Shown here piece after piece: positions 32,921-46,484 of a stretch of 64,000 bases of DNA (the first letter of the stretch is position 1; each line of letters opens with the position of its first letter). Source of the stretch: a virus; the IMG/VR virus record IMGVR_UViG_3300045988_034415, positions 82,807 through 146,806 of that record. One strand, 5' to 3'. Position numbers and translations under genes: made by a program. The notes beneath the pieces were generated by a model. That model was not told the origin of the DNA, ran no database searches, and was given only the letters and a program-made list of their open reading frames with translations.

Positions 32921-32926
32921 AGTTCA

Positions 32927-33208: not shown

Positions 33209-33209
33209 A

Positions 33210-33890
33210 TTAACTACCTACAAGTATTTTAACATTACCAGTCTCTATATCGAGAGTAGCTTTCTCAAGCCATAAATCTTCTATATGATGTCCCCATATT
33301 CCATACTTACCTGGATTCTCCTTCTCTTCTTCGTAAATCCTTCTATATGCAAGAACTATTTCATTTATCAAATCATTCAAAACGATACATTTAACAGTGA
33401 ATGTGTATGGATTCTTTAACGGATAATTAATAGTTACGTTTACTGTATGATTCTTGAAATAGCTATCAACATGACCAAAGAGGAAAATTCCACAGTCAAT
33501 GGAGTATTTATGAATCTTTATGTTAACACCTTTAGGAAGTAATTCGCGCTCCCTCTCTATTGTGAATTTAGACGGAAGTCTGTTTATTACTTCCTGCATA
33601 TCAAAGTCCTTGTCACCATATACACCTATTCCAGATTCTTTATGCTGAACATACACATAATACATTAGCCTATATTGATTGTCTCCTACACAAACATCTA
33701 GCTCATGCATACTAATATCATAATCTGGATTTAATTCCCTAATTTCATTTAGCCTATCGTTATCATTAAAGATTGCACAGATGGTTTGGTCCGCTTGTTC
33801 CTCCGTTATCAAATTGTTCTCTAGTAATTTGCCTACTAGGACAGGTACTATCTCCTCCACTTCATCAACATTAATTAATCGCTTTCCCAT
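33210..33890 (-). CDS. hypothetical protein (226 aa)
   Basis: ORF track. Confidence 0.5.
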   Translation of the reverse strand: MGKRLINVDEVEEIVPVLVGKLLENNLITEEQADQTICAIFNDNDRLNEIRELNPDYDISMHELDVCVGDNQYRLMYYVYVQHKESGIGVYGDKDFDMQEVINRLPSKFTIERERELLPKGVNIKIHKYSIDCGIFLFGHVDSYFKNHTVNVTINYPLKNPYTFTVKCIVLNDLINEIVLAYRRIYEEEKENPGKYGIWGHHIEDLWLEKATLDIETGNVKILVGS

Positions 33891-34084
33891 TCTTCTTCTA
33901 ATGTATTATATAATTTAATAAAATCTTCTCCTTTATATTCACATACACATTCATTATCCTTATTAAAGATAGTAAGCATGTGCATATCCTTAGATTGTCC
34001 ATTGTCTACATAAGAATACATCCCGTGTACCAATACGTATTCGGGATGTTTCTCATTCCAGTTATTTACAAGTTCCTTCATCAC
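33875..34084 (-). CDS. hypothetical protein (69 aa)
   Basis: ORF track; overlapping start/stop arrangement. Confidence 0.4.
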   Translation of the reverse strand: MMKELVNNWNEKHPEYVLVHGMYSYVDNGQSKDMHMLTIFNKDNECVCEYKGEDFIKLYNTLEEEWESD

Positions 34085-34322
34085 TAAGTGTTATTCCATT
34101 ACTAGCATAAGATATAAATGTACCTGTGTCATATGGTCTCCAGCCACTATTATCTCTACGTATAGTAGTTGTCTGTCCTACGTTAAATTGTGAAATCTCT
34201 ACTATGTTATCAAGAACTCTAAATAAGTCCTCTATTGATAAGTTTGGAAGTATCTGATGTAAATTCTCTAATGTCTTTCTAACGTCAATCATAATAGTAT
34301 ATTTTAGCAAATTGTACATCAC
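34062..34322 (-). CDS. hypothetical protein (86 aa)
   Basis: ORF track. Confidence 0.4.
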   Translation of the reverse strand: MMYNLLKYTIMIDVRKTLENLHQILPNLSIEDLFRVLDNIVEISQFNVGQTTTIRRDNSGWRPYDTGTFISYASNGITLSDEGTCK

Positions 34323-34524
34323 CTATACTAATATTAGGCAGTAATACTTTATATAGTTCTGTAGATTCAAATGTATCTTTATATTCCCTAGGAACTAACA
34401 GAGTATCAACATGATGTCCTCTAGATATTCTAGCTAGATAGGAAATTTTACTATCATCAAAGTCTGTAAGTTCCAACATAATGGCATTATGATGCCTAGG
34501 ACAGTTCCCACTAAGTATTATCAT
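34285..34524 (-). CDS. hypothetical protein (79 aa)
   Basis: ORF track. Confidence 0.4.
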   Translation of the reverse strand: MIILSGNCPRHHNAIMLELTDFDDSKISYLARISRGHHVDTLLVPREYKDTFESTELYKVLLPNISIGDVQFAKIYYYD

Positions 34525-34527
34525 AAT

Positions 34528-34689
34528 TACTTCTCCTGTAGTAAGATTCTCATCTCTTCCTTCCAGTTCTTATACCACTGTTCATTAATAAGGTCTTCTG
34601 ATTCAATTAATTCAATCAAATCCTTAGTGCCATTATGAATTTGGCTACATAAATACTGTGCTAATTGGTTCTTTAATTCATCCATAATT
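34528..34689 (-). CDS. small hypothetical protein (53 aa, below the track cutoff)
   Basis: Own translation MDELKNQLAQYLCSQIHNGTKDLIELIESEDLINEQWYKNWKEEMRILLQEK fills the gap between flanking genes. Confidence 0.3.
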
Positions 34690-34690
34690 A

Positions 34691-34888
34691 TTAGTCTTTA
34701 GTTTTAACATAAAGTTGGCAATGGCAAGTCCCTTCTTCCATTTCCCTAAACTCTTTACACATACATACTGTATCTTCATCTCTTACTAAAGAGCATGGAC
34801 AATACTTCTTACCATACTTCTCTTTATTCCTTTTAAGTCCTGCTAGGACTGTTTCCTTTACTTCTTTATTATCAGTTACTTTAATCAT
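34691..34888 (-). CDS. zinc-ribbon-like small protein (65 aa)
   Basis: CPCS...CMCK...CHCQ cysteine pattern. Confidence 0.45.
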   Translation of the reverse strand: MIKVTDNKEVKETVLAGLKRNKEKYGKKYCPCSLVRDEDTVCMCKEFREMEEGTCHCQLYVKTKD

Positions 34889-35531
34889 TGCGCTGACGCT
34901 GTATACAGTTCTATGTTTAGGTCTATTTCCCCACCAGTAAATCTAAATACTCTACCAGAATTATTCATTTTGACCCACCTTCCAGATGAAGGGAGTGTTA
35001 CTCCTTCTGCCCAATTCTCAGATTGAGAATCTACTGCTAATGTAATTTGAGACACTTGCCTAAGCATCACGTATCCCTCAAAACGTATCCAAACAGGTGT
35101 ATTATATGGGTCTTGGTTAGGAAGTGCTAATTTCTCTAAGTAATATTTAAGAGGATTTGCTAAAGTCTTAGTGTACGTTCGTTCTCCTTGCTCTAATCTT
35201 GGAGTAATTGTAAAGTACATAGTATTGTCAGAATACTCAAACGGCTCTCCATTCACTGAACTCTCATTAACAAATGAGAAACGTACTCTAAATTGCCGTA
35301 TATTATTAATTGGCATATCCTGCCAACCATAATGAAGGATTACATTTGGAGCAGTTATAGCTGCCTCTATACCTTCTAACTCTACTAACTGATTATCAGT
35401 ATAACTAAATCCACTTTTAATCTGACATCCTAATTCAAGTGCTCTAGCTTTAGTACAGCACTTATTATCAATTACCGAGAGAGTCCCCCCCCCATAGTCT
35501 TAGCTTCTAATTCTGTTGCTATTTTACTCAT
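34885..35531 (-). CDS. G9-tract-disrupted gene: N-terminal 19 codons (35475-35531) out of register with ORF 34885..35316
   Basis: Minus-strand ATG at 35531 (ATGAGTAA overlap with the upstream stop) reads MSKIATELEAKTMGGGLSR*; one extra G (G10) fuses it in frame to MPINNIRQFRV... giving ~215 aa. Confidence 0.45.
35485..35493 (-). repeat. G9 homopolymer (C9 on the plus strand) in the N-terminal Gly-Gly-Gly codons
   Basis: Read directly: gagagt ccccccccc atagt. Confidence 0.95.
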
Positions 35532-35793
35532 GGTTCTTGTATCGTTCTGTAATATTAATTAAATCCTTGTTGTCATGCAGTAACTCTAAGAAAGCCTTGT
35601 CTACTGCTATATCAAATGCAGTATTAGTAATGATTGGTTCTTTATGCACTCTCTCAATCTCTTCTCTAATCATTTGTTCAGATAATTGAGTGTATAATCG
35701 TCTGGTATAATCATTATACCAAGGCTCTTTAAATGTTACTATAATTTCTTCTCCTGTCATAAATATATTGTCTTTAGTAATCCAGGTAGGCAA
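35524..35793 (-). CDS. hypothetical protein (89 aa)
   Basis: ORF track. Confidence 0.45.
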   Translation of the reverse strand: MPTWITKDNIFMTGEEIIVTFKEPWYNDYTRRLYTQLSEQMIREEIERVHKEPIITNTAFDIAVDKAFLELLHDNKDLINITERYKNHE

Positions 35794-35863
35794 TACTTCC
35801 AGCCTGGATATATGTACGCATTCCTATATAATGCTTCTTCTACTAATTCTACTTCTTGTGTTA

Positions 35864-36175
35864 TCATTGATTAGCCTTTGCTCTTGCTAAATAGTCTCTA
35901 GTTTGCCATCTGCCATCATATTCCATATCCCATGGAGCTACCTTATTTAGTATTTGTAGTAGCTCCTCACCACTTATAGAGTCTCTATGTTTGAGTGTAT
36001 GAAGTATTTCATCCTTAAGGTTTCTAATATAGAAGTCTCTCATATGTATGTTAGCATATAATTCCTTTATATAATCCCTCATATACTCTGCTAATTTGTA
36101 GTCATTAGTCTTTAATAATTCTAGAGCTCTCTGGTCTACATTATCATAATCACCTGGTATCTGTTCTAGTTTCAT
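35864..36175 (-). CDS. hypothetical protein (103 aa)
   Basis: ORF track. Confidence 0.45.
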   Translation of the reverse strand: MKLEQIPGDYDNVDQRALELLKTNDYKLAEYMRDYIKELYANIHMRDFYIRNLKDEILHTLKHRDSISGEELLQILNKVAPWDMEYDGRWQTRDYLARAKANQ

Positions 36176-36546
36176 TGAAGTTTCTCTAAGTTCTTTACTA
36201 TCGTGAATAGCTCATCTGGTTCGAATGATGTGATATCATTAATAACATCAACCATATACTCTTTAACTTCATCTAGAGTCATTATTTTAAATTCATCCTT
36301 AGATAGACCTTTAGTTTTGATAAATTTACTAAATATGTCTATAATCTGGACTAAGTTGTGCTTATCTTGTAAATAGAACTCACCCTTCTCTGGATGAGAT
36401 GCTAATTTAAATATATCTGCATTATCTGTAATTACTTGTTCATATTCCTCATCACTAAGAAGATTCATTAACGCTACAGCTTTATCATATAGCAATTTAA
36501 CTTCCTTCTCTTCATACTGCTTATTAATTCTATCAATATGTCTCAT
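36172..36546 (-). CDS. hypothetical protein (124 aa)
   Basis: ORF track. Confidence 0.45.
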   Translation of the reverse strand: MRHIDRINKQYEEKEVKLLYDKAVALMNLLSDEEYEQVITDNADIFKLASHPEKGEFYLQDKHNLVQIIDIFSKFIKTKGLSKDEFKIMTLDEVKEYMVDVINDITSFEPDELFTIVKNLEKLQ

Positions 36547-36548
36547 TA

Positions 36549-36803
36549 TTAGCGAATGTTATTATAAATGCAAGATAGTTGCATTAAATATTCAATACCA
36601 GCTCCATTAGCTAGTCCGTCTTGCAATTTATTTAATAATTCTAATTTTACATCTGTTGTTTTATTGTCTAACTTCACCCAGTTAGTTGCCTTTGATTCAT
36701 TACATCCTAAATCAGTATTTACTGGACATTCTGACAAACTAGTCTTTAATATTTTTACTTCATCTACTTCTTTACTTGTTAAGTCTTTAACTTCTTTAGC
36801 CAT
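36549..36803 (-). CDS. hypothetical protein (84 aa); first gene of the minus-strand small-gene operon
   Basis: ORF track. Confidence 0.45.
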   Translation of the reverse strand: MAKEVKDLTSKEVDEVKILKTSLSECPVNTDLGCNESKATNWVKLDNKTTDVKLELLNKLQDGLANGAGIEYLMQLSCIYNNIR

Positions 36804-36900
36804 TGTTATAAATTTTAGTTATTGTTAATAATTCTGATTTAAGTTCGCAAATATATTATTATTTAATTTGACAATACAAAATTAGTTATATATTTCAATA

Positions 36901-36914
36901 TTACCAAATGGTAA
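36901..36914. promoter_or_regulatory. perfect palindrome TTACCAAATGGTAA (operator-like)
   Basis: Read directly in the divergent AT-rich intergenic region. Confidence 0.4.
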
Positions 36915-36933
36915 TATAATTATTAATATATAT

Positions 36934-37148
36934 TATATATTGCCAACTCAAATTCACAGTTAATATTAAGTATATTGCCAACTCGGAACTTCATGACGTG
37001 CTGTGGCAATCTGCGCCCCTTCGGGGCTTGCTTGCAATTAGTAAGATGAATAGAAATTAATATATATTGCCAACTCACAAGTACGGGTGCTCAAAATCAC
37101 ACCCCTCCCACTCCCGGGGTGGGTTGTCATATTATATATTGCCAACTC
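36934..37148 (+). repeat. array of four direct repeats (TA)TATATTGCCAACTC (iteron/operator-like)
   Basis: Copies at 36934-36949, 36971-36984, 37061-37076 and 37133-37148; interspersed GC-rich hairpins (gcccc-ttc-ggggc at 37015-37027; cccactcccggggtggg at 37105-37123). Confidence 0.8.
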
Positions 37149-37456
37149 GGATGCTGGGTGAATATTGCAAGATTTGTGTATATTGCGGATACGACAGTCG
37201 TGTTACCCTTCACACCCCTCACCCATGTTTGGAGAAAATCAAAAGATTTATATCATTTGGTTTTGCTTTATAATATTCATTTTAAAATTATTAGCTTATG
37301 TACACTATTTTATCAAACGGTTTAGTTCGTGTTAATCTTACAGGTTGTTATATCACAATGTCAGAATATAAAGAACTAATTGCAGGCGTATAAAATTAAA
37401 TTAAGAACGGGTAAATAAGTCCGTTCTATATTGTTTCACTAATAAATTATTAAACT

Positions 37457-37939
37457 ATGAATTTAACAGAATTACAAGAAGTTAACAAGAAGTTACCGAA
37501 AGCAAGCAAAAACGAAATTGCGGCAGCTTTAAACCGTTTGGGTGTGAATCCTGATTCTATCAAGGTAGGCGACAAATTGAAGTTTCCCGCTGAAATTAAC
37601 GAATTTAACGGAACAATCACAAAGGGAGTTGTAAACGGTAATACATTCTTTCAAGTTGCCGTAGAGGTTAACGGAACGGCAAGAAACGTGTCTATCAATT
37701 CTTTGTTCCGGTCTTTCAACGACCGTGAAAACAACAAGCGTATTACACCGGTTGACATTCTTCCAGAGGCGGACAAAGACAAATGTATTTTCACTATGTT
37801 TGAAAATAAGACAATAGCGGAATGTCTTGCAGATTTACAAGGTACGGAAGTAACCGCAAAGGCGATAGAAACGTTTGAAAGCGTCGCAAGAGACGGCAGC
37901 CAAATGAACGTAAATGTCATTGCATATTGCAAGGAATAA
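37457..37939 (+). CDS. hypothetical protein (160 aa) with atypical (GC-richer) codon usage
   Basis: ORF track; GCG/CCG/CGT/GGC codons are frequent, unlike the neighbours. Confidence 0.5.
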   Translation: MNLTELQEVNKKLPKASKNEIAAALNRLGVNPDSIKVGDKLKFPAEINEFNGTITKGVVNGNTFFQVAVEVNGTARNVSINSLFRSFNDRENNKRITPVDILPEADKDKCIFTMFENKTIAECLADLQGTEVTAKAIETFESVARDGSQMNVNVIAYCKE

Positions 37940-38046
37940 CAAAGTACTTCTTATTGAAAGGCACATTTAGAAAGTCTATTTGTGTCTTTCTTTTTATCAT
38001 GCTTATTCAGATATATTTGTTAGTATGTAGTTAGCCGAATAGTGAA

Positions 38047-38244
38047 ATGAAAGCGAAGAAATCAAAATTAAGAACTGTATTTGGACGTAATCGGAACGAT
38101 GCAATTCATGCAAATAATGGTATAATGTATAAACTGACAAATCCTCTGTTTGAGGAAGCAGTAGGCTATTATTTGCTTGAACAAATCTCCACTTGGAGTG
38201 GGACGAGATATAAAGTACTAAAGTACGTAGTTCAGACCGTTTGA
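38047..38244 (+). CDS. small hypothetical protein (65 aa)
   Basis: ORF track. Confidence 0.3.
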   Translation: MKAKKSKLRTVFGRNRNDAIHANNGIMYKLTNPLFEEAVGYYLLEQISTWSGTRYKVLKYVVQTV

Positions 38245-38336
38245 ATGTGTAAAATGAATATTATTAAGAGTATGTAGGTCTGTGATAGATATACATGCTC
38301 ACCTTTTATTCGAGTTGACAATAATACTATATATTT

Positions 38337-38591
38337 ATGGACTACATCGAAGACGATTTCACAGATGCTCTAATTGATGCAATTTGTGAGAAATCACCAA
38401 GCACTTGGTATACCTTAATAGGAGAGAACTTTGACCCAGACGAAGAGACAATAGTCAAGGAAGCTGACAATAAGAAGGACATTGAAGATGCATTTAATGA
38501 AAGCAAAGACGACTTTGATTTATTATATGTAGTACTTAATGATGAATCTTATGCGGCATGTTCCAAAGGCTCTAAACTTATTTGGAAGTAA
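38337..38591 (+). CDS. small acidic protein (84 aa)
   Basis: ORF track; strongly acidic. Confidence 0.4.
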   Translation: MDYIEDDFTDALIDAICEKSPSTWYTLIGENFDPDEETIVKEADNKKDIEDAFNESKDDFDLLYVVLNDESYAACSKGSKLIWK

Positions 38592-38608
38592 ATAACGATT
38601 AAAACCTC

Positions 38609-38926
38609 ATGGTGTATAGGTTAACCATGCGCACATTTATGGTATTCGAATACGTTCATTCAAGCGGAATTAAACTACGTCCAGCTAGACCTTTAACTAA
38701 CAGCATATTATACATTTACAATCCAATTGGCAACGAATGGATGCATTTGTGTAAAGAGGACATACATGGACATCTAGAGCTATTGACATGCTTTAGTAAT
38801 GGTGCTACTATGTATCAGGTAATTGAAGGTCTTAAGAAAGTAGTAGAGTATTGGGGAGATGACTATCTCGTAGGTCGCAGAGACTTTTACAAAGAGATTA
38901 TAGACATCTATTCCTCACACCGATAA
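38609..38926 (+). CDS. hypothetical protein (105 aa)
   Basis: ORF track. Confidence 0.4.
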   Translation: MVYRLTMRTFMVFEYVHSSGIKLRPARPLTNSILYIYNPIGNEWMHLCKEDIHGHLELLTCFSNGATMYQVIEGLKKVVEYWGDDYLVGRRDFYKEIIDIYSSHR

Positions 38927-39646
38927 CATCACAGGGTTTAGCTCTTCTAAGTAGTTGCAAATGCTTGGAATCCTTTACGTGCAAAATGGACATAATGCAT
39001 GTATTGCCCAAATTAAGACGTTCCTGCTTCACGCGTTAAAGCAGGAGTCCATTATGGTTGTTTTAATTACATTAATCTTTAAGTTTTAAACAGCGTCCTG
39101 CATTGTTTGTGGGTTTTGGTATGGCTCCTCTGCCAAGTAATGCGTACAAGAGCTATGATAGACTCACAAAGAAAATGTATTTGTGAGTAAACAATGGTGA
39201 AACCACATTGCTTTAAGTAGTAATGTGGGGACCATTCCGCCCTATTTGCAATTATGAACTGCATAGTGACAGAGACCTAAGAGAGGGAAGCAAATGAGCG
39301 TTGACTATCGTAGCGAAAGCTGCGTTCCACCATCGTACGTAGGGGTGTGTGGGTAATCGGCTAAAGGAACGTTCTGCAACTTGTGCCTCACAAGCATGAG
39401 TTGTACGTAGAGTACGTGTGGCAGCCTGGAATAGACAGGCAATTATATCAAAAACTCAATAACTTCCCAAGACATTGAGGGCACCAGTTTCTTATGGGCA
39501 GAAGTATGTTAGATAGGTCACTAGTTCTGTGCGCAGAGTTAGTAAGCTGTCGATTAAAGAGAGAAGCATTCGGCATGAGAACCCGACTACTCGTAAGTTT
39601 TAGGTGTAAAATGCAACCACTAGAAACCTCACACTGAATAGGTAAA
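38927..39646 (+). ncRNA. candidate large structured non-coding RNA (720 nt ORF-free, GC-enriched block)
   Basis: No ORF of 60 aa or more on either strand except a short antisense one; GC content visibly above the flanking genes; GNRA hairpin cgtaGCgaaaGCtgcg at ~39306-39321. Confidence 0.3.
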
Positions 39647-39946
39647 GTGTACATAGTTATGAGTAAATACGATGATTGTCACAGAGTTGACAATAGATAT
39701 ACCACAGCTATAGGAATGAGTGTGTGGAGATTCTTTAACATTGGCAAATATAAGAATCAGAAAGTGAAAGACGTCTGTTACTTTAATCCATTCTATGTAG
39801 CATGGTGTCTGGAGAGCTGGCAGGGATTTAGTCTTACTAGCTACGAACGTTCCAATTACATGAAAGGATTAGAACGTCAGTTAGAGAAAGACCCTGAAGA
39901 CCAAGAACTCATCTTAAAGGTGAGTAAATGTAAAACCATTGTATGA
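39647..39946 (+). CDS. hypothetical protein (99 aa)
   Basis: ORF track. Confidence 0.4.
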   Translation: MYIVMSKYDDCHRVDNRYTTAIGMSVWRFFNIGKYKNQKVKDVCYFNPFYVAWCLESWQGFSLTSYERSNYMKGLERQLEKDPEDQELILKVSKCKTIV

Positions 39947-40285
39947 TTATTTTTACAGAAATGATATAGTCATCCACCATAATGGGTACGCCCGGAGACT
40001 AATGCAGAGCATCTCTTATACCAAACAGTATCCTCCTTTAATACTGGAGAGATGTCTTATCGTGAGATAAGGCAAAGGAGTGTGGCACAGAAAGGTGGAT
40101 TCCTTTACTTGTAATAATATTTTTGTTCGTTTTATTACAGCATATCCTCCCGTGACGGGAGTGGCATCATGACTAAGCCTTTACGTGGCGATGCTATAAG
40201 TAAGTCAATAGACTGAAACTAATTAGTTCTTTATTAACGTTTCACTAAAACCTCGTGAGTGTATAGGTAACTCATTAGATTAATT

Positions 40286-41092
40286 ATGAAGACATTAAAA
40301 TCATCTCTCAAGTTCAGTGTAGTAGAAATCACACCGAAAGATGCAGAAGTACTATTGTCAAAGTATTTGCACAATCGGCCTATTTCTAGAGACAATATCA
40401 ACAAGTATGCTATTCAAATGTCTGAAGGTAAATGGCATTTGAACGGTGAGGCAATCATTATAAATGATAAAGGTCTTACTGATAACGGCTATCATCGTCT
40501 AGCAGCGTGCATACAGGCAGGTGTTCCATTTCAAACTGTGCTCATAGAAGGTGTTAAACACGAAACTTGGACTACCATAGATACTGGTAAAACAAGAAGT
40601 GCAGGTGATGTGTTTGGAATCATGGGCATTACTAATCCTACCCAGAAAGCTTCCATTGTGGCTAAATATTACGCTTTGACCAAGGGCTTGAAAGGTTTGG
40701 CTGATGCTGGCGCTCTTCACAGACTTAGAGGGACTGGTCTGACTCGTCAAGATTTGTTGAACATGTACAGAAAGTATGAAACTACCTTTGATGAGGTTAC
40801 AGGACTTGCACTCAAGTACAAGAAGTACACTAAAGGATTACTCCATGCATCTATGATTGGTGGTGTAACAGCTTATCTTGTTCTTGATAAGAAGCATAAA
40901 TTAGATACTCTTGACGACTTCTGGAACAAAGTATCTACAAGCACACTTCCGTTGTATACGAGTGGTCGTAATCGTTTGCTGTCTGTGCGTGGTCAGGACA
41001 AACAAAAGGTTGTGACTGACCTGTGGAATAAATATATCTCTTCTAAAGAGAACATCCGCGTTAATATCACGTCTGCAATAATCTTTAAGTAA
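40286..41092 (+). CDS. ParB-like nuclease domain protein (268 aa)
   Basis: Motif GLTDNGYHRLAACIQAG (ParB N-terminal domain G-x-HR-x-AA signature). Confidence 0.5.
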   Translation: MKTLKSSLKFSVVEITPKDAEVLLSKYLHNRPISRDNINKYAIQMSEGKWHLNGEAIIINDKGLTDNGYHRLAACIQAGVPFQTVLIEGVKHETWTTIDTGKTRSAGDVFGIMGITNPTQKASIVAKYYALTKGLKGLADAGALHRLRGTGLTRQDLLNMYRKYETTFDEVTGLALKYKKYTKGLLHASMIGGVTAYLVLDKKHKLDTLDDFWNKVSTSTLPLYTSGRNRLLSVRGQDKQKVVTDLWNKYISSKENIRVNITSAIIFK

Positions 41093-41131
41093 CCAAAGGA
41101 GTGTGAGATTTCCATATTTTAAAACCTGGCA

Positions 41132-41671
41132 GTGAGTAGGTTAACTGCCAACTTATCTATGACTAATGAATTAGCAGAGGAATACAGAGAGCTTAAACGT
41201 AACTTAATACCCATATTGTTACAGACATGTGGTAAAGAGCGTTTATGTGATGCTGTAGACAAATGGTTATTAGTAAAATCCGGTATCAAAGTAATATCTA
41301 AATCATGGTATGAAGGTGGATTGCCTGGTAAAGAGTATGTGGTAATTAAGGATACTTCAGTACTTGCTAGCTATCCCTCTAAAGGTGCTAATTATGAACA
41401 TCGTCTTGCGAGGTATAGAGCCTACACTAAGGCATTTAACCATGTAAGAGAAGAAGGAATACCTTTGGCTCCTATACAGGTTGATAAATTTACCAAAGTA
41501 CTTGTCAATGGAGTAACACTATGCCTTATCGGAACTTTTGAAGGTAAATCAGAGAATGACTTTATCAAAGAGATATCTGGTAAGGTTTACGTAAAGGCAG
41601 GTACTGATTCGGTAGATGTTATTAATCTACAAACTAGAAGAACTAAAAGATATAAAGTTCAGTACACATGA
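41132..41671 (+). CDS. hypothetical protein (179 aa)
   Basis: ORF track. Confidence 0.45.
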   Translation: MSRLTANLSMTNELAEEYRELKRNLIPILLQTCGKERLCDAVDKWLLVKSGIKVISKSWYEGGLPGKEYVVIKDTSVLASYPSKGANYEHRLARYRAYTKAFNHVREEGIPLAPIQVDKFTKVLVNGVTLCLIGTFEGKSENDFIKEISGKVYVKAGTDSVDVINLQTRRTKRYKVQYT

Positions 41672-42012
41672 AACTATACTTTAACTATACACAGAACTTC
41701 ATCCTTGCAGATTGTGAGGGTGAGGTTATTGATATGAGAACTGGCCAGCCTTCTGATGCCAAACTACAATCTCGTCTTAATAGCTACAAAGATGAAACTA
41801 CATCTAAGTGGATTCCTATTAAGGACTTAGGAGATTTGTATGATATGTCAGATAGTGATGTAACAGTTTCTGGCAGCTTAATCACGATGTCCATTGACGG
41901 ACATAAGGTTACAGCTAGACATAAGGTGTCAGCAGGAGTTAATTATGTACAACTGACTGGACACTTCCCTCGCTACTTCTGGAAAGGATTTGCTAACTTA
42001 TTAACTAAGTAA
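41668..42012 (+). CDS. hypothetical protein (114 aa)
   Basis: ORF track; 4-nt start/stop overlap. Confidence 0.45.
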   Translation: MKLYFNYTQNFILADCEGEVIDMRTGQPSDAKLQSRLNSYKDETTSKWIPIKDLGDLYDMSDSDVTVSGSLITMSIDGHKVTARHKVSAGVNYVQLTGHFPRYFWKGFANLLTK

Positions 42013-42014
42013 CA

Positions 42015-42248
42015 ATGTTATCGCAGATACAATTTAGGAAACAGAGAATACCATGTACTCTCAATCATCAATCTATTACTTCTCGTGAAGGTAAGTTGCT
42101 TCTTGGGTTTGGAACTAACCAACCCATGATGCAACAAGCCGAAAGACAAATTGCCAAATATCAAGTTCCTTATGAGACATCTGATTTAAATGGCATGCTT
42201 TCAATCATTATTGATTATTCTATTATCAGCAGTGTAACAACAATCTAA
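42015..42248 (+). CDS. hypothetical protein (77 aa)
   Basis: ORF track. Confidence 0.35.
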   Translation: MLSQIQFRKQRIPCTLNHQSITSREGKLLLGFGTNQPMMQQAERQIAKYQVPYETSDLNGMLSIIIDYSIISSVTTI

Positions 42249-42258
42249 CCTTTAAACA

Positions 42259-42501
42259 ATGGATATAAAGAACAGTCCTATAGTTAAACATGCAATTAAC
42301 AATGACAAATCTCTTCTTCCCGGAATCATCGCTTACAGCTGCAAAGAAGCTATGGTAATGGCTAAGAGAGAATGCGGTGATTTTATAGACTTCGCCAAGG
42401 AGTGGATACAGTCCTCCAAACAGCTTTGCGAAGAAGAGAACATTCCATGGGAACAGATTAGGGCAGCAACTGGAGATTCTATTGATAATTATATATCATA
42501 A
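42259..42501 (+). CDS. hypothetical protein (80 aa)
   Basis: ORF track. Confidence 0.4.
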   Translation: MDIKNSPIVKHAINNDKSLLPGIIAYSCKEAMVMAKRECGDFIDFAKEWIQSSKQLCEEENIPWEQIRAATGDSIDNYIS

Positions 42502-42812
42502 TCTCCTTTCCGTCTAAAAGAGAGTCTGATGAGTCGTTGAAAATTACGACGAAACTTCACTGTGATTGGCATGTCACGGTGGGGTCACTCTTAACCAATA
42601 TTAGTAATTATGAAACTCACTAAGAATAAGAAAGACAATATAATAATTAGTTCTGCCATTGGAGCATTAGTAATTATTAATATTATGTTGCCTACAGCTG
42701 GCGATTTTACATATGTAGTCGGAGCTATAGGTATTGTTGCGGCCATAGGAGTCTGGTTCTTACCAGACTAATCAAATAATTAATAAATCAAACTCTTTAA
42801 ATTTAGAAGGAA

Positions 42813-43436
42813 ATGAAGAAATTACAAGAACGCCTGAAAGCTGGTATTGATTTCAATCCAAAGAAAGACCCATGCTATGATTCTATCGTAGAAGAAGCTG
42901 AAACTATTCTTGGGCATGTGCTCGATGCCGCTGAAGGCAAAGAAGTTCCTTACAAGAACTTCACTGTTGGTGGCGGTTATGACGAAAGGAAAGACCGTGA
43001 AATCGTCATTGTTCGTGGTGACGGTGAAGACTTGCTCGTTATGGAAGTTAAAGACGAATCTATTCGTGTTCAACCTCATGAACGTCATGCTGTCACTCTG
43101 AATGAGGATGACGAAGCTTCTGCCCGTGAAATCTTTGACATTCTTATGAAAATGAGAGACCAAAGACAAGGCTCTACATTTAAAGTCGAAGAAGGCAAAA
43201 AAGCTTTGTTTGAGTTTCTGAAGGATATATCTAAGGCTATCGGTGCTGATGTTGAAGGTGTTGAAACGCCAGAAGAGCTATTAAAAGCTCTCAAGGCTAG
43301 AGAAGAAGGCAATGAAGGAGCCATAGAAGATTTGATGCGTGAACAACGCATTCATCTTACTATGCACATGCTTGACTGTTCCCGTGAGAAGGCAGAGAAG
43401 ATTGTAAAGAACTTTGAAGAAGCTGTGAAGCGTTAA
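42813..43436 (+). CDS. acidic hypothetical protein (207 aa)
   Basis: ORF track; E/D-rich. Confidence 0.45.
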   Translation: MKKLQERLKAGIDFNPKKDPCYDSIVEEAETILGHVLDAAEGKEVPYKNFTVGGGYDERKDREIVIVRGDGEDLLVMEVKDESIRVQPHERHAVTLNEDDEASAREIFDILMKMRDQRQGSTFKVEEGKKALFEFLKDISKAIGADVEGVETPEELLKALKAREEGNEGAIEDLMREQRIHLTMHMLDCSREKAEKIVKNFEEAVKR

Positions 43437-43446
43437 TAATGCCAAG

Positions 43447-43515
43447 AGAGGATTAGTTCAATGGTAGAAGGCTAGTTGCGAACTGGCGGAGGGAGTTCGA
43501 ATCTCCCATCCTCTC
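43447..43515 (+). tRNA. tRNA (short D-arm), anticodon probably GCG (Arg)
   Basis: Acceptor AGAGGAT/ATCCTCT, T-arm GGGAG-TTCGAAT-CTCCC, anticodon loop TTGCGAA; D-arm non-canonical so the isotype is uncertain. Confidence 0.55.
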
Positions 43516-43596
43516 CAATCATTTTAAAGTTTTGTATAGTTTAGGCTTGCCCCAGTCATGTTGTGAAACACACTTGGGCTTTTAATTAATAAGTGT

Positions 43597-43950
43597 ATGA
43601 ATCAGAATGCAGTTAATTCTTTAAGGAATGCCAAGAGGCATATTCTTATTAGCGATGTTGATAAGTTCAATAGCCATTTATTGTATTACATATTAAATGT
43701 TATATATGGAACACATGACCATATTAAATTAAATACGATACGTGAAAGACTTGAACGTGAGCTTAAATGGTCATTGGACGAGCATATTCCTGATAAGGAT
43801 GTAATTAGAGAATGGCTTGACAATGATTACCCTCTTATATGCATAACAGAGTTATCGTTTGACAGTTGTATTAAACTTGCCAACGATTTCCCAGATTATG
43901 AAATTGTAGTTTATAGTTGGATGAAACATGAAGGGAACTTACCATTTTAA
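43597..43950 (+). CDS. hypothetical protein (117 aa)
   Basis: ORF track. Confidence 0.45.
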   Translation: MNQNAVNSLRNAKRHILISDVDKFNSHLLYYILNVIYGTHDHIKLNTIRERLERELKWSLDEHIPDKDVIREWLDNDYPLICITELSFDSCIKLANDFPDYEIVVYSWMKHEGNLPF

Positions 43951-44086
43951 ATGGAATAAAAATAACTCCTAGGCTATTAAGTCTGTAATGGGTACGCTAC
44001 TCAATGTAGCACAGGAAGATACTGATAGCTTTTTTGTTCAGGTTTGAGAGACCTCCTGGCATGAGAGGATAATCATGCCGTTCTAT

Positions 44087-44608
44087 GGGCCTAGATTTGG
44101 TTTTGACAGGCGATTACAAGTTAGTAAGACGTGTAGAGTTCGTACCAACTCTTTAATAATGATACAGCAATTTAAGTGGAAACACTGAAGTAAGAATGGC
44201 AGCCTAAGCTGCTGGCTTAATTAGTGGACGTCATTGATTAAGTCGGGTTAATTGGAGAGACCTAGAAACAGAAGAGGTGTGGGAAGAAGCGTATAGAGCA
44301 GCCCACTTAACTTGAAAGCCAAAGGTTAGTAAAGCTGAAATCTCCACTACCTATCTATGGGTTACAAATAGAAACGTTCTCCAACGTAAATGGAGTGGTG
44401 GAGCGACCGTTCGGTCAAGCCCAGTTTGGTAGTTTGTGAACAACTAAGTCGTAGCCCTACGAGGGAGACGTAATTGGTGAATTAACACTCGGCTTCTTAG
44501 TAAAACTACCTACATGCTGAACTCAACAGCTGATGTAATAAAATAGAGACACACGTAATCTTATTAATGAGGGTTGTTTGGACGGCGGTTCGACTCCGCC
44601 TAGGTCCA
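44087..44608 (+). ncRNA. ssrA: tmRNA (ssrA), ~520 nt
   Basis: 5' GGGCCUAGAUUUGGUUUUGACAGGCG resembles E. coli GGGGCUGAUUCUGGAUUCGACGGG; 3' GGACGGCGGUUCGACUCCGCCUAGGUCCA resembles GGACGCGGGUUCAACUCCCGCCAGCUCCACCA; acceptor GGGCCUA pairs with UAGGUCC; short frame ...GNTEVRMAA-TAA at 44163-44207 about 90 nt from the 5' end. Confidence 0.7.
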
Positions 44609-44636
44609 CTATTATTAACGTTTAAATATCAATTTT

Positions 44637-44990
44637 ATGGGATTATTTATTATTGCAGTGATTGTTTTACTTATTTGTGTATGTCTTTCGCGAGTAGGGT
44701 CTAAAGACCTAAGAGGAGTTGCAGTGGCAGTTGAGGTTGTATTCTCAATAGCAACAGTTGGGGCAGCGATTTCATTACCATTCGCTATTACAAGGAATAT
44801 TCAAATTATTGGCAAGCACGCAGTGCTCAAAGAAACATTGGAGGCTACTGATAGGAAGAATTACTATCTTATATCTAGTGATGTCTTAAGGCTTAATTAT
44901 ACCATCATGAATCATAGGAACTTTGTAGACAACTTCTGGATTGGGATATGGTATGATAAGGACGTAGCTAAATTGGAACTATTAAAATGA
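44637..44990 (+). CDS. membrane protein (117 aa)
   Basis: ORF track; two hydrophobic helices. Confidence 0.45.
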   Translation: MGLFIIAVIVLLICVCLSRVGSKDLRGVAVAVEVVFSIATVGAAISLPFAITRNIQIIGKHAVLKETLEATDRKNYYLISSDVLRLNYTIMNHRNFVDNFWIGIWYDKDVAKLELLK

Positions 44991-45268
44991 AAGCAAGGTT
45001 ATTAAAGAAACTTCGCAAGGAGTCAAAGAAGCTGAAATTAATAAGAGGTGAGGATTATCAATACATAGTTACTGATAGTCCTCATGACATATTAAGACCA
45101 AAGCTTGATACTTACTACAGTGGCACATACTACTGTGGTCAAGAATTATTATTTGACGAAGATGTAATTGCATGGTTACATCAATGCAGACGTAATTGGA
45201 TTCTGTCCGAGGTTAAACGAATGCGTGTACATCTGCGTAAATCTCGAATTAGAATATATAAAGAGTAA
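44987..45268 (+). CDS. hypothetical protein (93 aa)
   Basis: ORF track. Confidence 0.45.
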   Translation: MKARLLKKLRKESKKLKLIRGEDYQYIVTDSPHDILRPKLDTYYSGTYYCGQELLFDEDVIAWLHQCRRNWILSEVKRMRVHLRKSRIRIYKE

Positions 45269-45294
45269 TTGTTTCACTAAAAGTTATTGAAATT

Positions 45295-45792
45295 ATGGGA
45301 AAGAGGTCAATATCCGATGATGACATCGTTCGGATTTTTAACACGGTAAAGGCAATGAATCCTGGGCCTTTTAAGATTACAGATGTAGTCAGGGATTTAA
45401 AGAAGAATGGCTTCCCAAGGCCAGAGAACTTCATGGCTGTTTTGCGTAAGCAGGGAGTGATTGAACCTGACGGTGCTATCTATACTAAAGGATTTATGTG
45501 GAAAGAACATGGCCCTTTGTATAAGACTAGAGTCATTGAATTGATAACTATCAGCAGGAAAGAAATGGCTAAGATACAGAGAGATGCATATGCTAAGAGA
45601 ATGGCTATTAAAGCTGGCACTTACGTAGCACCTCCTAAACCTAAGCCACAAGCTGAAATGGAAGCTGTTACAGAAGCGGAAGAAGACAAACATCTGATTC
45701 CTATTACACAGGCTGAAATGGAAGCAATCAAATTCCTGAAATCGAGAGGTTATAGAATCACTAAATTAATAACAGTTGAACAGATAGTATGA
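45295..45792 (+). CDS. hypothetical protein (165 aa)
   Basis: ORF track. Confidence 0.45.
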   Translation: MGKRSISDDDIVRIFNTVKAMNPGPFKITDVVRDLKKNGFPRPENFMAVLRKQGVIEPDGAIYTKGFMWKEHGPLYKTRVIELITISRKEMAKIQRDAYAKRMAIKAGTYVAPPKPKPQAEMEAVTEAEEDKHLIPITQAEMEAIKFLKSRGYRITKLITVEQIV

Positions 45793-46484
45793 AGTTTACA
45801 GTACAAGGGAACACGCCATTCAGTGCACACATTTGCCAATATCTATATGATTTGGAAAGCAACTTTGCTAAGGAGAAACTATCATTGCCACTTAGTCAGA
45901 TTATAGCTCATATCTTATATGGGACTAAGAGAATCAGACTTGGTAATGAAGCTATTCCGTCCGAAGCAATCACTATTTTGGAAGAATGTATTGAAGCTAA
46001 TCAGCCAATACCAGTCAATTGTATCTTCGGCAGTTCTGAATCGGAGAAAGACTATGTTGACATTGCTGAATTTCAATCTCTTCAAACGTTGAAGGATATA
46101 AGCAGGAGAGTTGCTAAATTCTACTATCCAGGCTTGAACATAAGACTAGATGTAGTAGGCGATTCAAAATATGTTAGTAAGGTGATGAGACTAGCAACAG
46201 TCCTAGGTGGTTTTACCATAGGCACACACCAATCAGCTATTAATGTATCATTCGCTCACTACCGGCCAGCACACTATTATTATAAGTCTATTCCGTCTCG
46301 AAACATTCTACGAGGTGGATATGTTCCAGCTTGGGACGGTAGAGGTTATTTATACTTAGAATCCCCACATGATATTGTGAGTATGATAACTACAGCTGAC
46401 AATCCTGATATTCTTTCGACGACTGTGGTGTTAGAAGCAAACGAAGAGACGGTAGACCTTCGTGTGGACTATCTAATACCGTAA
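45789..46484 (+). CDS. hypothetical protein (231 aa)
   Basis: ORF track. Confidence 0.5.
   Translation: MKFTVQGNTPFSAHICQYLYDLESNFAKEKLSLPLSQIIAHILYGTKRIRLGNEAIPSEAITILEECIEANQPIPVNCIFGSSESEKDYVDIAEFQSLQTLKDISRRVAKFYYPGLNIRLDVVGDSKYVSKVMRLATVLGGFTIGTHQSAINVSFAHYRPAHYYYKSIPSRNILRGGYVPAWDGRGYLYLESPHDIVSMITTADNPDILSTTVVLEANEETVDLRVDYLIP

What the first reader, a model, noticed from the sequence alone, without database searches (positions are those of the whole stretch)
38927..40285. Two long ORF-free, GC-enriched blocks (720 nt and 340 nt) flanking a 99-aa gene: candidate large structured RNAs or a self-splicing intron
Nearly every other base of this phage is coding, yet 38927-39646 and 39947-40285 have no credible ORF on either strand. 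They are visibly GC-richer than the flanks and contain stable local hairpins (GNRA stem cguaGCgaaaGCugcg at ~39306-39321; CTCCCG-tga-CGGGAG at ~40149-40163). Large ornate ncRNAs (ROOL/GOLLD classes) and group I introns are both known to sit in phage genomes near tRNA arrays.
Basis: partly seen in the sequence, partly recalled or inferred. Interest (0 to 1): 0.55.

Follow-up and report, generated by a model that had tools for sequence, protein, structure and literature searches.

The report
Island of uncatalogued structured phage RNAs
The two gene-free stretches are not an intron or one giant RNA but a row of at least four separate, conserved, folded RNA modules, none matching an Rfam family; one is a ~75-base double-pseudoknot RNA that is nearly identical across more than a hundred gut crAss-like phage contigs, and its function is unknown.

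Summary
The ORF-free blocks are real: 720 nt and 339 nt, with stops in all six frames under any single stop-codon reassignment. Only the middle of block 1 is GC-enriched (45.6% against 37.1% for the window); block 2 is not (37.5%).

No Rfam family matches, even at E<=10, so ROOL, GOLLD and group I/II introns are not supported.

Comparison with related phages splits the region into modules that recur in different combinations:
- M1: 38927-39157, 3'-UTR-like.
- M2: 39158-39440, ~285 nt; 18 of 64 predicted pairs show compensatory changes.
- M3: 39450-39615.
- M4: 39972-40100.
- M5: 40146-40228.

M3 is the striking one. A 46-nt stretch is about 100% identical in Suoliviridae and Steigviridae crAss-like phages that share no other DNA similarity with this window. 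It occurs in more than 119 IMG/VR contigs. Covariation supports a double-pseudoknot fold with a hypervariable P3 insert of 15-117 nt.

In relatives the same modules sit among hatchet and hammerhead ribozymes, RAGATH-6, -7 and -14 RNAs, tRNAs and tmRNA.

Most likely this is a co-transcribed island of independent RNA cassettes of the RAGATH type. Function is unknown. A new self-cleaving ribozyme, or an RNA that binds a conserved partner, both remain open.

The parts
38927..39157 (+). M1: 3'-UTR-like module after the 105-aa gene. It holds hairpins, a terminator-like hairpin plus U-run at 39097-39113, and a hairpin with the conserved loop GUAAUGCGUA at 39122-39155.
   Evidence: 95% identical in L104 and L109, 86-88% in L085 and L088. 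Differences from L085/L109 include a 1-nt and a 4-nt indel, so it is not coding. The hairpin CCUGCA/UGUGGG becomes CCUACA/UGUAGG. Terminator-like site reported. The GUAAUGCGUA hairpin recurs directly upstream of M3 in L008, L046, L123 and L124.
39158..39440 (+). M2: ~285-nt multi-hairpin structured RNA and the GC-rich part of block 1. It contains the GNRA hairpin at 39309-39324, an invariant ~68-nt core at 39309-39376, and a terminal hairpin GCCUG-GAAUAGA-CAGGC at 39424-39440.
   Evidence: Present in 17 IMG/VR contigs by exact 26-mer. RNAalifold on 10 sequences predicts 64 pairs, 18 with compensatory double changes (alignment A2). It occurs apart from M3 in L034 and L043. GC 45.6%. No Rfam hit.
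39450..39615 (+). M3: ultraconserved double-pseudoknot RNA.
- 5' A-tract: 39450-39454.
- P1: 39455-39460 with 39474-39479.
- PK: 39466-39467 with 39480-39481.
- T1: 39473-39476 with 39611-39614.
- P2: 39482-39485 with 39604-39607.
- U-rich 5x5 internal loop: 39486-39490 and 39599-39603.
- P3 plus a 107-nt variable insert: 39491-39598.
   Evidence: The 46-nt and 23-nt blocks are about 100% identical in 15 crAss-like GenBank phages. More than 119 IMG/VR contigs carry it. There are about 20 further true members in metagenomes. Covariation. Single copy in the window. No Rfam hit, even for the 73-nt minimal form.
39647..39946 (+). Small protein gene. It is 99 aa from the GTG, and more likely 95 aa from the ATG at 39659. 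It separates M3 from M4 in this phage.
   Evidence: Pfam ExoX-like_C, E=2.2e-6. The same gene follows M3 in L104, L106 and L109 and is absent between M3 and M4 in L048, L116, L122 and L126.
39972..40100 (+). M4: closed multi-stem RNA. The closing stem is AUCCACC (39972-39978) with GGUGGAU (40094-40100). It has a UACG hairpin, a variable hairpin and a GUGA-capped hairpin. The conserved junctions are AUAAUGGGUAYGCCCNGAGACUA, CAAAGNANNGUG and GCACAGRAA.
   Evidence: 63 IMG/VR contigs. The closing stem has 4 or more contiguous pairs in 30 of 33 distinct versions, with many different sequences. The GNRA hairpin covaries. In relatives the order is RAGATH-14, tRNA, M4, RAGATH-1 hammerhead.
40146..40228 (+). 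M5: three-hairpin RNA with the conserved loop CUAAGCCUUUACGUGG and the junction AUAAGUA...GAAAC.
   Evidence: 38 IMG/VR contigs, usually 170-260 nt downstream of M4. 22 predicted pairs, 7 with compensatory changes.
38603..38621 (+). Gene-start motif copy 1 (AACCUC plus a hairpin with loop GUAUAGGUUA), in front of the 105-aa gene.
   Evidence: Pattern found 3 times in the window against 0.06 expected. Also found in front of genes in 16 related loci.
39625..39643 (+). Gene-start motif copy 2, between the M3 3' end and the 99-aa gene.
   Evidence: The stem ACACU/AGUGU differs from the other two copies.
40249..40268 (+). Gene-start motif copy 3, between M5 and the 268-aa gene (phrog_5931).

Best explanation
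The two blocks are a rightward-transcribed island of independent structured-RNA cassettes. M2 and M3 lie in block 1 and M4 and M5 in block 2. M1 is a 3'-UTR or terminator module. The island is interrupted by one small protein gene.

Shown:
- Each cassette is a separate family that keeps its own helices by compensatory substitution.
- Each is found in tens to more than a hundred gut-phage contigs.
- The cassettes are shuffled between genomes as units.
- In relatives, the cassettes sit among hatchet and hammerhead ribozymes, RAGATH-6, -7, -12, -14 and -34 RNAs, tRNAs and tmRNA. This is the RAGATH-type ribozyme/ncRNA neighbourhood, with new, uncatalogued motifs.

M3 fold. One continuous strand, CAUUGAGGGCACC, pairs with four separate segments: the 3' tail (T1), the 5' strand of P1, two loop cytosines (PK) and GGUG (P2). 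A conserved U-rich 5x5 internal loop and a freely replaceable P3 arm follow. An invariant A-tract sits at the 5' end. P3, PK and T1 are shown by covariation. P1 and P2 rest on complementarity only.

Inferred mechanism. The cassettes are co-transcribed with the early/middle genes and tRNAs. They are then cut out, by host RNases or by the neighbouring ribozymes present in relatives, into stable small RNAs. The compact M3 fold displays its invariant unpaired nucleotides to a highly conserved partner and acts in trans as an RNP component, a decoy or a catalyst for the phage.

My probabilities:
- Functional structured RNAs on the + strand: ~0.9.
- Independent cassettes rather than one RNA or an intron: ~0.85.
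- Processed, trans-acting small RNAs: ~0.4.

The overall confidence of 0.6 is for the statement as a whole.
For: Not coding: stops in all frames under any recoding. Relatives differ by 1-, 2- and 4-nt indels and by wholesale replacement of P3.

Conservation:
- M3 is the only DNA similarity between window 30000-50000 and Suoliviridae/Steigviridae genomes, at 96-100% over 46-54 nt.
- It is present in more than 119 IMG/VR contigs and in metagenomes under several unrelated record prefixes.
- It is absent from bacterial genomes apart from 6 contigs: five in MAGs and one low-coverage contig in an isolate assembly, which I read as mis-binned phage DNA or contamination.

M3 structure, on 52 distinct sequences:
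- T1 pair 24-75: CG 43, UA 9. Pair 25-74: AU 42, GC 10. No exceptions.
- PK pair 17-32: CG 34, UA 18. Pair 18-31: CG 48, AU 2, GC 1, UG 1.
- P3 positions 4-6 show 4-6 pair types.
- Covariation score 0.309 against 0.129 for shuffles (0 of 500 reach it). 94.9% of cells are paired, against 31-46% when partners are slid by 1-3 columns.
- G-U pairs (P1 C/U-G; the G-U or A-U closing pair of P2 in the model; G-U pairs in P3) fit only the + strand, the strand of all flanking genes and tRNAs.
- The 73-nt natural minimal form folds into P1, P2 and P3 as its minimum-energy structure, z = -2.6.
- About 30 loci carry a 34-nt GNRA-capped hairpin inserted in the P1 loop, a typical peripheral RNA expansion.

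Other modules:
- M2: 18 of 64 pairs compensatory.
- M4: closing stem covaries in 30 of 33 versions.
- M5: 7 of 22 pairs compensatory.

Modularity:
- blastn of the window against the loci gives separate blocks with different sets of partner loci.
- The window and L035 share an identical 165-nt M3 (39450-39615) with different flanks on both sides.
- The order of modules differs between loci.

Context:
- Hatchet, RAGATH-1 hammerhead, RAGATH-6, -7, -12, -14 and -34, tmRNA and tRNAs lie within 1-3 kb of M3 or M4 in relatives.
- RAGATH-34, tmRNA and 25 tRNAs lie downstream in the window.

Precedent: in crAss-like phage phi14:2, long early intergenic regions are transcribed above most genes and were called long non-coding RNAs of unknown function (bioRxiv 10.1101/2020.03.07.982082).
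Against: - There is no expression, end-mapping or biochemical data for any module. Transcription is inferred from strand and context.
- P1 and P2 of M3 never vary on both sides, so they are not proven. P1's lower three pairs compete with T1.
- Much of M3's apparent invariance is imposed by my exact-match search patterns. The relatedness of the sequences inflates the shuffle control.
- The P3 interiors were replaced by GAAA in alignments A1 and A3.
- Four metagenomic members (L269, L277, L279, L281) end in GGAUAGAUUAA and lack the P2 3' strand and the T1 tail.
- No conserved promoter or terminator brackets M3.
- No protein partner is evident. Neighbouring proteins have no annotation.
- The phi14:2 early intergenic regions contain no M3 homologue.
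- The window itself has no recognised ribozyme next to these modules.
Confidence: 0.6

Rival explanations
1. One or more modules, M3 above all and possibly M4 or M5, are new classes of small self-cleaving ribozyme. They would process the polycistronic RNA/tRNA transcript, as hatchet and hammerhead ribozymes presumably do in sister genomes.
For: - M3 is about 75 nt with two pseudoknots, almost all nucleotides conserved, and one dispensable variable arm. This is the anatomy of twister, pistol and hatchet (my own knowledge of those classes).
- The modules occupy the same slots as hatchet and RAGATH-1 hammerhead in relatives.
- Searching near ribozyme-associated genes is how hatchet, pistol and twister-sister were found (Weinberg 2015, as cited in PMC5737381).
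- M3 has sharp 5' and 3' conservation boundaries.
Against: - No Rfam ribozyme model matches.
- The hatchet consensus is unrelated in sequence.
- As I recall, most RAGATH candidates that were tested did not cleave.
- No cleavage site can be deduced from the sequences.
Confidence: 0.15
2. M3 is a cis-acting 5' leader, either riboswitch-like or a translation-control element. Formation of T1 would sequester the A-rich tail and AUG and so control the downstream ORF.
For: - T1 uses the 3' tail UAAAAUGC and competes with the lower part of P1, as in an aptamer/expression-platform pair.
- In gut phages the tail contains AUG, or GUG in L049 and L113.
- In roughly a third of loci with a downstream ORF call, an ORF starts within 50 nt downstream.
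- 3'-tail pseudoknots that hide initiation signals are known from preQ1-II and SAM-II riboswitches (my own knowledge).
Against: - The AUG is not conserved. Most of the more divergent metagenome members (11 of 52 rows in A3) have AAAACAC, AAAACGC or AAAACGU instead, and one IMG/VR member (L235) has AAAAUAC; these changes are exactly compensated in T1.
- ORFs opened by the AUG are 5-29 codons long and unrelated to one another (read directly).
- Downstream genes fall into 53 unrelated clusters in about 100 loci, and in many loci the next element is another RNA.
Confidence: 0.1
3. The conserved blocks act at the DNA level, as a replication origin, packaging site or recombination/homing target. Under this reading the hairpins are DNA cruciforms or single-strand structures.
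For: - M3 is single copy per genome.
- It lies about 2 kb from the strand switch and the cumulative GC-skew minimum.
- Flanks and inserts are mosaic, as if the conserved blocks were crossover points.
Against: - G-U wobble pairs would be A-C mismatches on the other strand.
- Pseudoknot pairs covary.
- Peripheral hairpin expansions, four different co-located families and their association with ribozymes and tRNAs all fit RNA genes better.
- L302 holds two copies within 3.6 kb.
Confidence: 0.04
4. One reading: a self-splicing group I intron carrying the 99-aa ORF, or a single large ornate RNA of the ROOL/GOLLD type.
For: - Large crAss-like phages are rich in group I introns (PMC7886860).
- The region lies near a tRNA array.
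- It contains GNRA hairpins.
Against: - No hit to the Intron_gpI, group II, ROOL or GOLLD models at E<=10.
- The flanking ORFs are separate, complete genes.
- The modules occur singly and in other orders elsewhere.
- M3 and M4 are adjacent without the ORF in relatives.
- The ORF gave no homing-endonuclease family in Pfam or PHROGs; its only hit is ExoX-like_C.
Confidence: 0.02

Closest known systems
RAGATH motifs (RNAs Associated with Genes Associated with Twister and Hammerhead; Weinberg et al. 2015 and 2017; Rfam RAGATH-1 to -35)
   Same: - Same genomic niche: intergenic arrays in gut-phage-like DNA, next to hatchet and hammerhead ribozymes and tRNAs. RAGATH-6, -7, -12, -14, -34 and RAGATH-1 hammerhead flank M3 and M4 in relatives, and RAGATH-34 is in the window.
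- They are orphan structured RNAs defined by covariation.
   Different: None of M2 to M5 matches any Rfam RAGATH model, even at E<=10. RAGATH is a collection defined by neighbourhood, not a homologous family. At least one member, RAGATH-18, turned out to be a TnpB guide RNA (PMC11061315), so function cannot be transferred.
Small self-cleaving ribozymes of the same neighbourhoods (hatchet, pistol, twister-sister, hammerhead)
   Same: Size of 60-130 nt, pseudoknots, highly conserved junction nucleotides, one length-variable peripheral stem, and a position within phage RNA arrays.
   Different: There is no sequence or model similarity: and the hatchet consensus is shown. Catalysis is untested. 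The M3 topology (P1, PK, T1, P2, U-rich loop, P3) does not correspond to any of these as far as I can recall.
3'-tail pseudoknot aptamers (preQ1-I/II, SAM-II) and ENE-type U-rich internal loops that clamp an A-tract (PAN, MALAT1); comparison from my own knowledge
   Same: - A compact H-type pseudoknot with an A-rich loop.
- A 3' tail that pairs back into the fold (T1).
- A symmetric U-rich internal loop (AGUUU/UUUUA) flanked by helices, with invariant A-tracts at both ends. These could form U-A-U triples.
   Different: - No Rfam hit.
- No coherent downstream gene set.
- The triple helix is pure inference, because the loop and the A-tracts do not vary informatively.
ROOL and GOLLD large ornate RNAs
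   Same: Phage-borne, near tRNA arrays, of unknown function.
   Different: Those are single RNAs of more than 500 nt. Here there are separate 75-290-nt modules, and there are no model hits.
Early long non-coding transcripts of crAss-like phage phi14:2 (Drobysheva et al.)
   Same: Long ORF-free stretches in the rightward early region of a crAss-like genome, transcribed very strongly, with function unknown.
   Different: There is no M3 homologue there. Part of that phi14:2 region scores as tmRNA at 46 bits against a cut-off of 47.

Membership tests
Group I intron | Match to the conserved catalytic core (Rfam Intron_gpI model) | tested here: not met
   No hit at gathering score over the window or at E<=10 over 38500-40400.
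Group I intron | Interrupts a gene whose exons join into one reading frame; the whole element is inserted or absent as a unit | tested here: not met
   The flanking ORFs have their own stops and starts. The pieces M1 to M5 occur independently and in other orders. M3 and M4 are adjacent without the ORF in L048, L116, L122 and L126.
Group I intron | Self-splicing in vitro or in vivo | not testable with these tools
   Needs RT-PCR or an in vitro splicing assay.
ROOL / GOLLD | Match to the family covariance model; a single multi-domain RNA of more than 500 nt | tested here: not met
   No hits. The region resolves into separately mobile modules of 75-290 nt.
RAGATH-type motif (neighbourhood class, not a homologous family) | Conserved structured RNA located near hammerhead/twister-type ribozymes or their associated genes | tested here: met
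   In relatives, M3 and M4 lie within 0.1-1.5 kb of hatchet, RAGATH-1 hammerhead and RAGATH-6, -7 and -14. In the window itself the nearest such element is RAGATH-34, 6.3 kb downstream.
Any catalogued RAGATH family in Rfam | Score against that family's covariance model | tested here: not met
   No RAGATH model hits 38500-40400 or the minimal M3 of L012 at E<=10.
Hatchet / pistol / twister-sister / hammerhead ribozymes | Family consensus (covariance model) | tested here: not met
   The hatchet consensus, inspected, is unrelated.
Self-cleaving ribozyme (any class) | Site-specific self-cleavage giving 2',3'-cyclic phosphate and 5'-OH ends | not testable with these tools
   Requires a biochemical assay.
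Riboswitch / cis-regulatory leader | Consistent position in the 5' UTR of functionally related genes | tested here: not met
   There are 53 unrelated downstream ORF clusters in about 100 loci. Gaps range from 10 to 1479 nt. M3 is often followed by another RNA.
Riboswitch / cis-regulatory leader | Mutually exclusive alternative pairings | tested here: inconclusive
   T1 and the lower three pairs of P1 share nucleotides 39474-39476. T1 covaries on both sides, whereas P1-lower changes on one side only.
tRNA / tmRNA | Detected by ARAGORN or Rfam | tested here: not met
   Nothing is detected in 38927-40285.
Host-derived RNA gene or mimic | Homologue present in bacterial genomes, or significant similarity to rRNA | tested here: not met
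   Only 6 contigs among 185,579 species genomes, five in MAGs and one low-coverage contig in an isolate assembly, which I read as mis-binned phage DNA or contamination. The best local match to E. coli 16S has p~0.02 before correction for 12 tests.

The most novel reading that the evidence does not exclude
M3 is a new class of catalytic or ligand/partner-binding RNA: a ~75-nt double-pseudoknot fold with rRNA-like sequence conservation, carried as a mobile cassette by crAss-like phages, a very abundant group of human gut viruses. Together with M2, M4 and M5 it would add several new functional RNA classes, possibly a new self-cleaving ribozyme, to the unexplained ribozyme/RAGATH islands of gut phages.
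Probability: 0.18. Interest if true: 0.85.

Novelty: new variant of a known kind. Interest (0 to 1): 0.62.

Why it matters
crAss-like phages are a very abundant group of viruses in the human gut. Their early regions contain kilobases of unannotated, apparently non-coding DNA.

This analysis shows that such DNA holds several distinct covariation-supported RNA families that no Rfam family matches. One of them is conserved almost base for base across phage families that share no other DNA similarity with this window.

That gives concrete, short targets for biochemistry: a 73-nt minimal M3 and a roughly 70-80-nt minimal M4. It also helps explain why these phages keep islands of ribozymes and orphan RNAs next to their tRNA and tmRNA genes.

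If any module is catalytic or binds a host factor, it would be a new RNA class and a new layer of phage-host interaction. It would also improve annotation of thousands of gut-phage genomes.

Tried and rejected
- Alternative genetic code. An amber-suppressor tRNA is present, but no frame opens under TAG, TGA or TAA reassignment.
- Rfam at gathering score and at E<=10 on the region, and on the minimal M3. Only chance-level hits appeared: TarA, snoR14 and mir-643.
- Group I intron with an ORF: rejected. See the membership table.
- Single-sequence folding of M3 with its long insert is uninformative (z = -0.48). Comparative analysis was needed.
- An extra 3-bp extension inside the P1 loop (CUU/AAG), which the MFE predicts. 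It is broken without compensation in L026, L051, L085 and L019, and the loop cytosines pair with GG instead (PK).
- The AUG in the M3 tail as a start codon of a leader peptide. The AUG is replaced by ACAC, ACGC or ACGU, with exact compensation in T1.
- The anti-Shine-Dalgarno-like loop CCUCCUUUA in M4 is not conserved in relatives.
- rRNA mimicry. I recalled a resemblance to the 16S 910 region and tested it against E. coli rrnB. The best hit is elsewhere (16S 179-202) and is not significant after multiple testing.
- Host origin: the genome scan was essentially negative.
- A homologue in the transcribed lncRNA regions of phi14:2: none.
- Sigma-70 promoter and terminator scan: at background level, and the host is probably a Bacteroidota species with a different promoter type.
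- Annotation of neighbouring proteins by Pfam and PHROGs: nothing informative.
- Literature search for a described crAss-phage RNA of this kind: none found. Weinberg 2015 itself is not held in the library.
Full report
**1. The observation**

The window is a gut phage. It carries 25 tRNAs including an amber suppressor, a tmRNA at 44087-44611 and a RAGATH-34 RNA at 46487-46594. Portal and terminase genes lie on the minus strand upstream. Every gene from about 37.4 kb onward is on the + strand.

38927-39646 (720 nt) and 39947-40285 (339 nt) contain no ORF of 80 aa and 60 aa or more respectively. Because the phage may recode TAG, I listed all stops. Every frame on both strands is also interrupted by TAA and TGA.

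GC enrichment holds only for 39158-39440 (45.6% against 37.1%; top 0.9% of windows). Block 2 is 37.5%. The 99-aa ORF between the blocks has a Pfam ExoX-like_C hit.

**2. No known RNA family**

Rfam 15 gives nothing here at gathering thresholds. With permissive filters at E<=10 it returns only three chance-level matches. This covers ROOL, GOLLD, group I/II introns and all ribozyme, riboswitch and RAGATH models.

**3. The key lead**

blastn of 38600-40300 against 50,697 phage records found one short stretch, 39443-39498, at 90-100% identity in 15 crAss-like records (11 at 95% or more). They belong to Suoliviridae of four subfamilies and to Steigviridae cr128_1. The match always falls in unannotated gaps of 0.5-2.2 kb. 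A second 23-nt block, 39594-39616, follows at a variable distance.

A megablast of the whole 30000-50000 region shows that this stretch is the only DNA shared with those genomes. The first 25 kb of the window are 99% identical to MT835470.1.

Most are about 100 kb, and some are 140-270 kb.

**4. Anatomy of this element (M3, 39450-39615)**

All copies read:

A5-7 CUCAAU AACUUCCCAAGAC AUUGAG GG CACC AGUUU CUUAU [insert] AUAAG UUUUA GGUG U AAAAUGC

The insert has 72 distinct sequences in 121 loci. It runs from 15 nt (L012 and L073, a 5-bp stem with a 5-nt loop) to 117 nt. It is 107 nt in the window. About 30 loci have a 34-nt GNRA-capped hairpin inserted in the first loop.

Upstream and downstream of these limits the sequences are unrelated, or drawn from a small set of alternatives. 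Identical elements sit in different flanks, as in the window and L035. M3 therefore behaves as a cassette.

The first covariation count used 45 trimmed sequences (alignment A1, P3 interior replaced by GAAA). The base of P3 changes through AU, UA, CG and GC pairs. A loop C/U also covaries perfectly with the G/A just before CACC.

To escape the bias of my first pattern, I scanned metagenomes anchored only on CACCAGUUUCUU...AAGUUUUAG. About 20 true members appeared, several under record prefixes not seen among the human-gut hits. They had new substitutions:
- The tail becomes AAAACAC, AAAACGC or AAAACGU exactly when CAUU upstream becomes UGUU or CGUU.
- The loop/junction pair becomes A-U (L158, L235) or G-C (L264).

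On 52 distinct sequences (alignment A3):
- T1 (39473-39476 with 39611-39614) is 100% paired: CG 43 / UA 9 and AU 42 / GC 10.
- PK (39466-39467 with 39480-39481) is 100% paired: CG 34 / UA 18 and CG 48 / AU 2 / GC 1 / UG 1.
- The covariation score is 0.309 against 0.129 for shuffles (0 of 500). Slid controls give 31-46% pairing against 94.9%.

P2 (CACC/GGUG) and P1 never change on both sides, so they rest on complementarity only. The lower three pairs of P1 compete with T1.

The natural 73-nt form folds into P1, P2 and P3 as its MFE, z = -2.6. G-U pairs make the fold specific to the + strand.

The model is a continuous strand, CAUUGAGGGCACC, paired in turn with the 3' tail, the P1 5' strand, two loop cytosines and GGUG. 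Next come a conserved U-rich 5x5 internal loop and the replaceable P3 arm.

The invariant A-tracts at both ends, with the two U-rich strands, could form an ENE-like U-A-U clamp. That is inference only.

A type-B paralogue with a different 5' domain keeps the same A-tract, CACC-AGUUU-P3-UUUUA-GG core and, in some copies, the tail. It sits about 250 nt upstream of M3 in L027, L038, L105 and L109, and also occurs in L075, L149 and L180.

The element is single copy in the window. It is essentially absent from 185,579 bacterial species genomes. The 6 hits are five MAG contigs and one low-coverage contig in an isolate assembly, which I read as mis-binned phage DNA or contamination.

**5. The rest of the blocks**

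blastn of the window against all fetched loci splits the region into pieces with different partner sets.

- M1 (38927-39157) is shared with L104, L109, L085 and L088. It carries 1- and 4-nt indels and a terminator-like hairpin.
- M2 (39158-39440) occurs in 17 IMG/VR contigs.
- M4 (39972-40100) occurs in 63 contigs. It is a closed domain whose terminal stem covaries in 30 of 33 versions. Its length between the conserved 5' and 3' junction motifs ranges from 62 to 185 nt.
- M5 (40146-40228) occurs in 38 contigs, usually just after M4.

In L048, L116, L122 and L126, M4 follows M3 after 70 nt with no gene between them. The 99-aa gene is therefore an insertion between cassettes, not the core of an intron.

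**6. Neighbourhood**

Rfam scans of 29 related loci found several families within 0.1-3 kb of M3 or M4, on the same strand:
- hatchet ribozymes (often two);
- RAGATH-1 hammerhead;
- RAGATH-6, -7, -12, -14 and -34;
- tmRNA and tRNAs.

Typical orders are:
- M2, (tRNA), M3, RAGATH-6, RAGATH-7, ..., hatchet;
- RAGATH-14, tRNA, M4, hammerhead.

These are the ribozyme-associated neighbourhoods that led to hatchet, pistol and twister-sister (Weinberg 2015, as cited in PMC5737381).

In crAss-like phage phi14:2, long early intergenic regions are among the most highly transcribed parts of the genome and are unexplained. They contain no M3, but one scores as tmRNA.

**7. What it most likely is, and how it works**

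Shown:
- The blocks are non-coding.
- They consist of at least four independent RNA families with conserved, covarying folds.
- The families are phage-specific, mobile as cassettes, and live in RAGATH-type RNA islands.

Inferred:
- They are co-transcribed rightward and matured into discrete small RNAs.
- M3, whose nearly every nucleotide is fixed in a compact double-pseudoknot, recognises a very conserved partner or is itself catalytic.

Arguments against a specific cis-regulatory role:
- 53 unrelated downstream gene clusters.
- Loss of the AUG in most of the more divergent members (11 of 52 aligned sequences).

Arguments against a DNA-level role:
- G-U pairs.
- Pseudoknot covariation.

Caveats:
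- There is no expression or biochemical evidence.
- P1 and P2 are unproven.
- Exact-match scans cause ascertainment bias.
- The sequences are related and many come from one large IMG dataset.
- Four members lack the T1 tail.

**8. Comparison and novelty**

The modules work like, and live with, RAGATH motifs and small ribozymes, but they match none of their models. I file them as new motifs of that known kind, not as members of any family. I found no description in the searchable literature. This cannot exclude unpublished or unindexed work.

**Verdict**

The general idea of structured RNA is right, and the specific candidates are wrong. The most interesting object is M3.

Noticed in passing
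window 38603-38621, 39625-39643, 40249-40268 (+); also L001 1745-1763, L085, L104, L121, L251, L253, L257: A repeated gene-start motif, AACCUC followed by a hairpin with variable stem and conserved loop (G)WAUAGGUWA, lies 6-20 nt upstream of the start codons of the three small genes that bracket the RNA modules. It occurs 3 times in the window against 0.06 expected. It could be a promoter or a translation-control hairpin shared by crAss-like phages.
   Followed up: partly
window 46865-48559 (+), next to RAGATH-34 at 46487-46594: A 564-aa ORF starts 270 nt after the RAGATH-34 RNA and hits PHROG 850 'RNA-binding protein' (E=1.4e-11). It has no Pfam hit. This could be an RNA-protein pair.
   Followed up: partly
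window 44087-44611 (+); L048 4878-5454; L126 3673-4231; L316 13597-14158: A phage-encoded tmRNA about 525 nt long, with large insertions relative to the 374-position Rfam model. It is conserved in the large relatives of this phage.
   Followed up: no
L368 (Cellulophaga phage phi14:2, NC_021806) 4031-4502 (+): The long ORF-free stretch between g004 and g006 of phi14:2 corresponds to the g004-g005 and g005-g006 intergenic regions reported as highly transcribed long non-coding RNAs of unknown function. It scores as tmRNA at 46.0 bits against a gathering score of 47 (E=2.6e-16).
   Followed up: partly
window 50877-50949 (+): A tRNA with anticodon CUA (amber suppressor) sits inside the tRNA array, which suggests TAG recoding in part of this genome. 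It does not affect the region studied.
   Followed up: partly
L027, L038, L105, L109 (about 250 nt upstream of M3); L075, L149, L180: A type-B paralogue of M3. It has the same 5' AAAAAACU, the same CACC-AGUUU-P3-UUUUA-GG core and, in L149 and L180, a closely similar 3' tail. The first hairpin domain is replaced by an unrelated, longer one.
   Followed up: partly
L302 263-321 and 1567-1625 (metagenome contig Ga0247609_10058171): Two diverged M3 copies lie 1.3 kb apart on one 3.6-kb contig. Their tails are AAAACGU and AAAACAC, each compensated in T1.
   Followed up: no
L269, L277, L279, L281: An M3 variant class ends in AAGUUUUAGGAUAGAUUAA. It lacks the P2 3' strand and the T1 tail. It may be a decayed or recombined lineage, or an alternative 3' module.
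   Followed up: no
window 1-25000 against 30000-50000: The structural half of the window is 99% identical to GenBank MT835470.1. The 30-50 kb part has no close match in the phage collection, which indicates strong mosaicism or an incomplete reference.
   Followed up: partly
window 39424-39440 and upstream of M3 in many loci (L010, L017, L043, L053, L106, L114): A small hairpin with a conserved loop close to GGAAAGAC and a covarying stem, followed by AUUU or CUUUUU, ends M2 and also directly precedes M3 in many genomes that lack M2 at that position. It may be a shared terminator or processing signal. AAGAC also recurs in the M3 loop and in the type-B paralogue.
   Followed up: no
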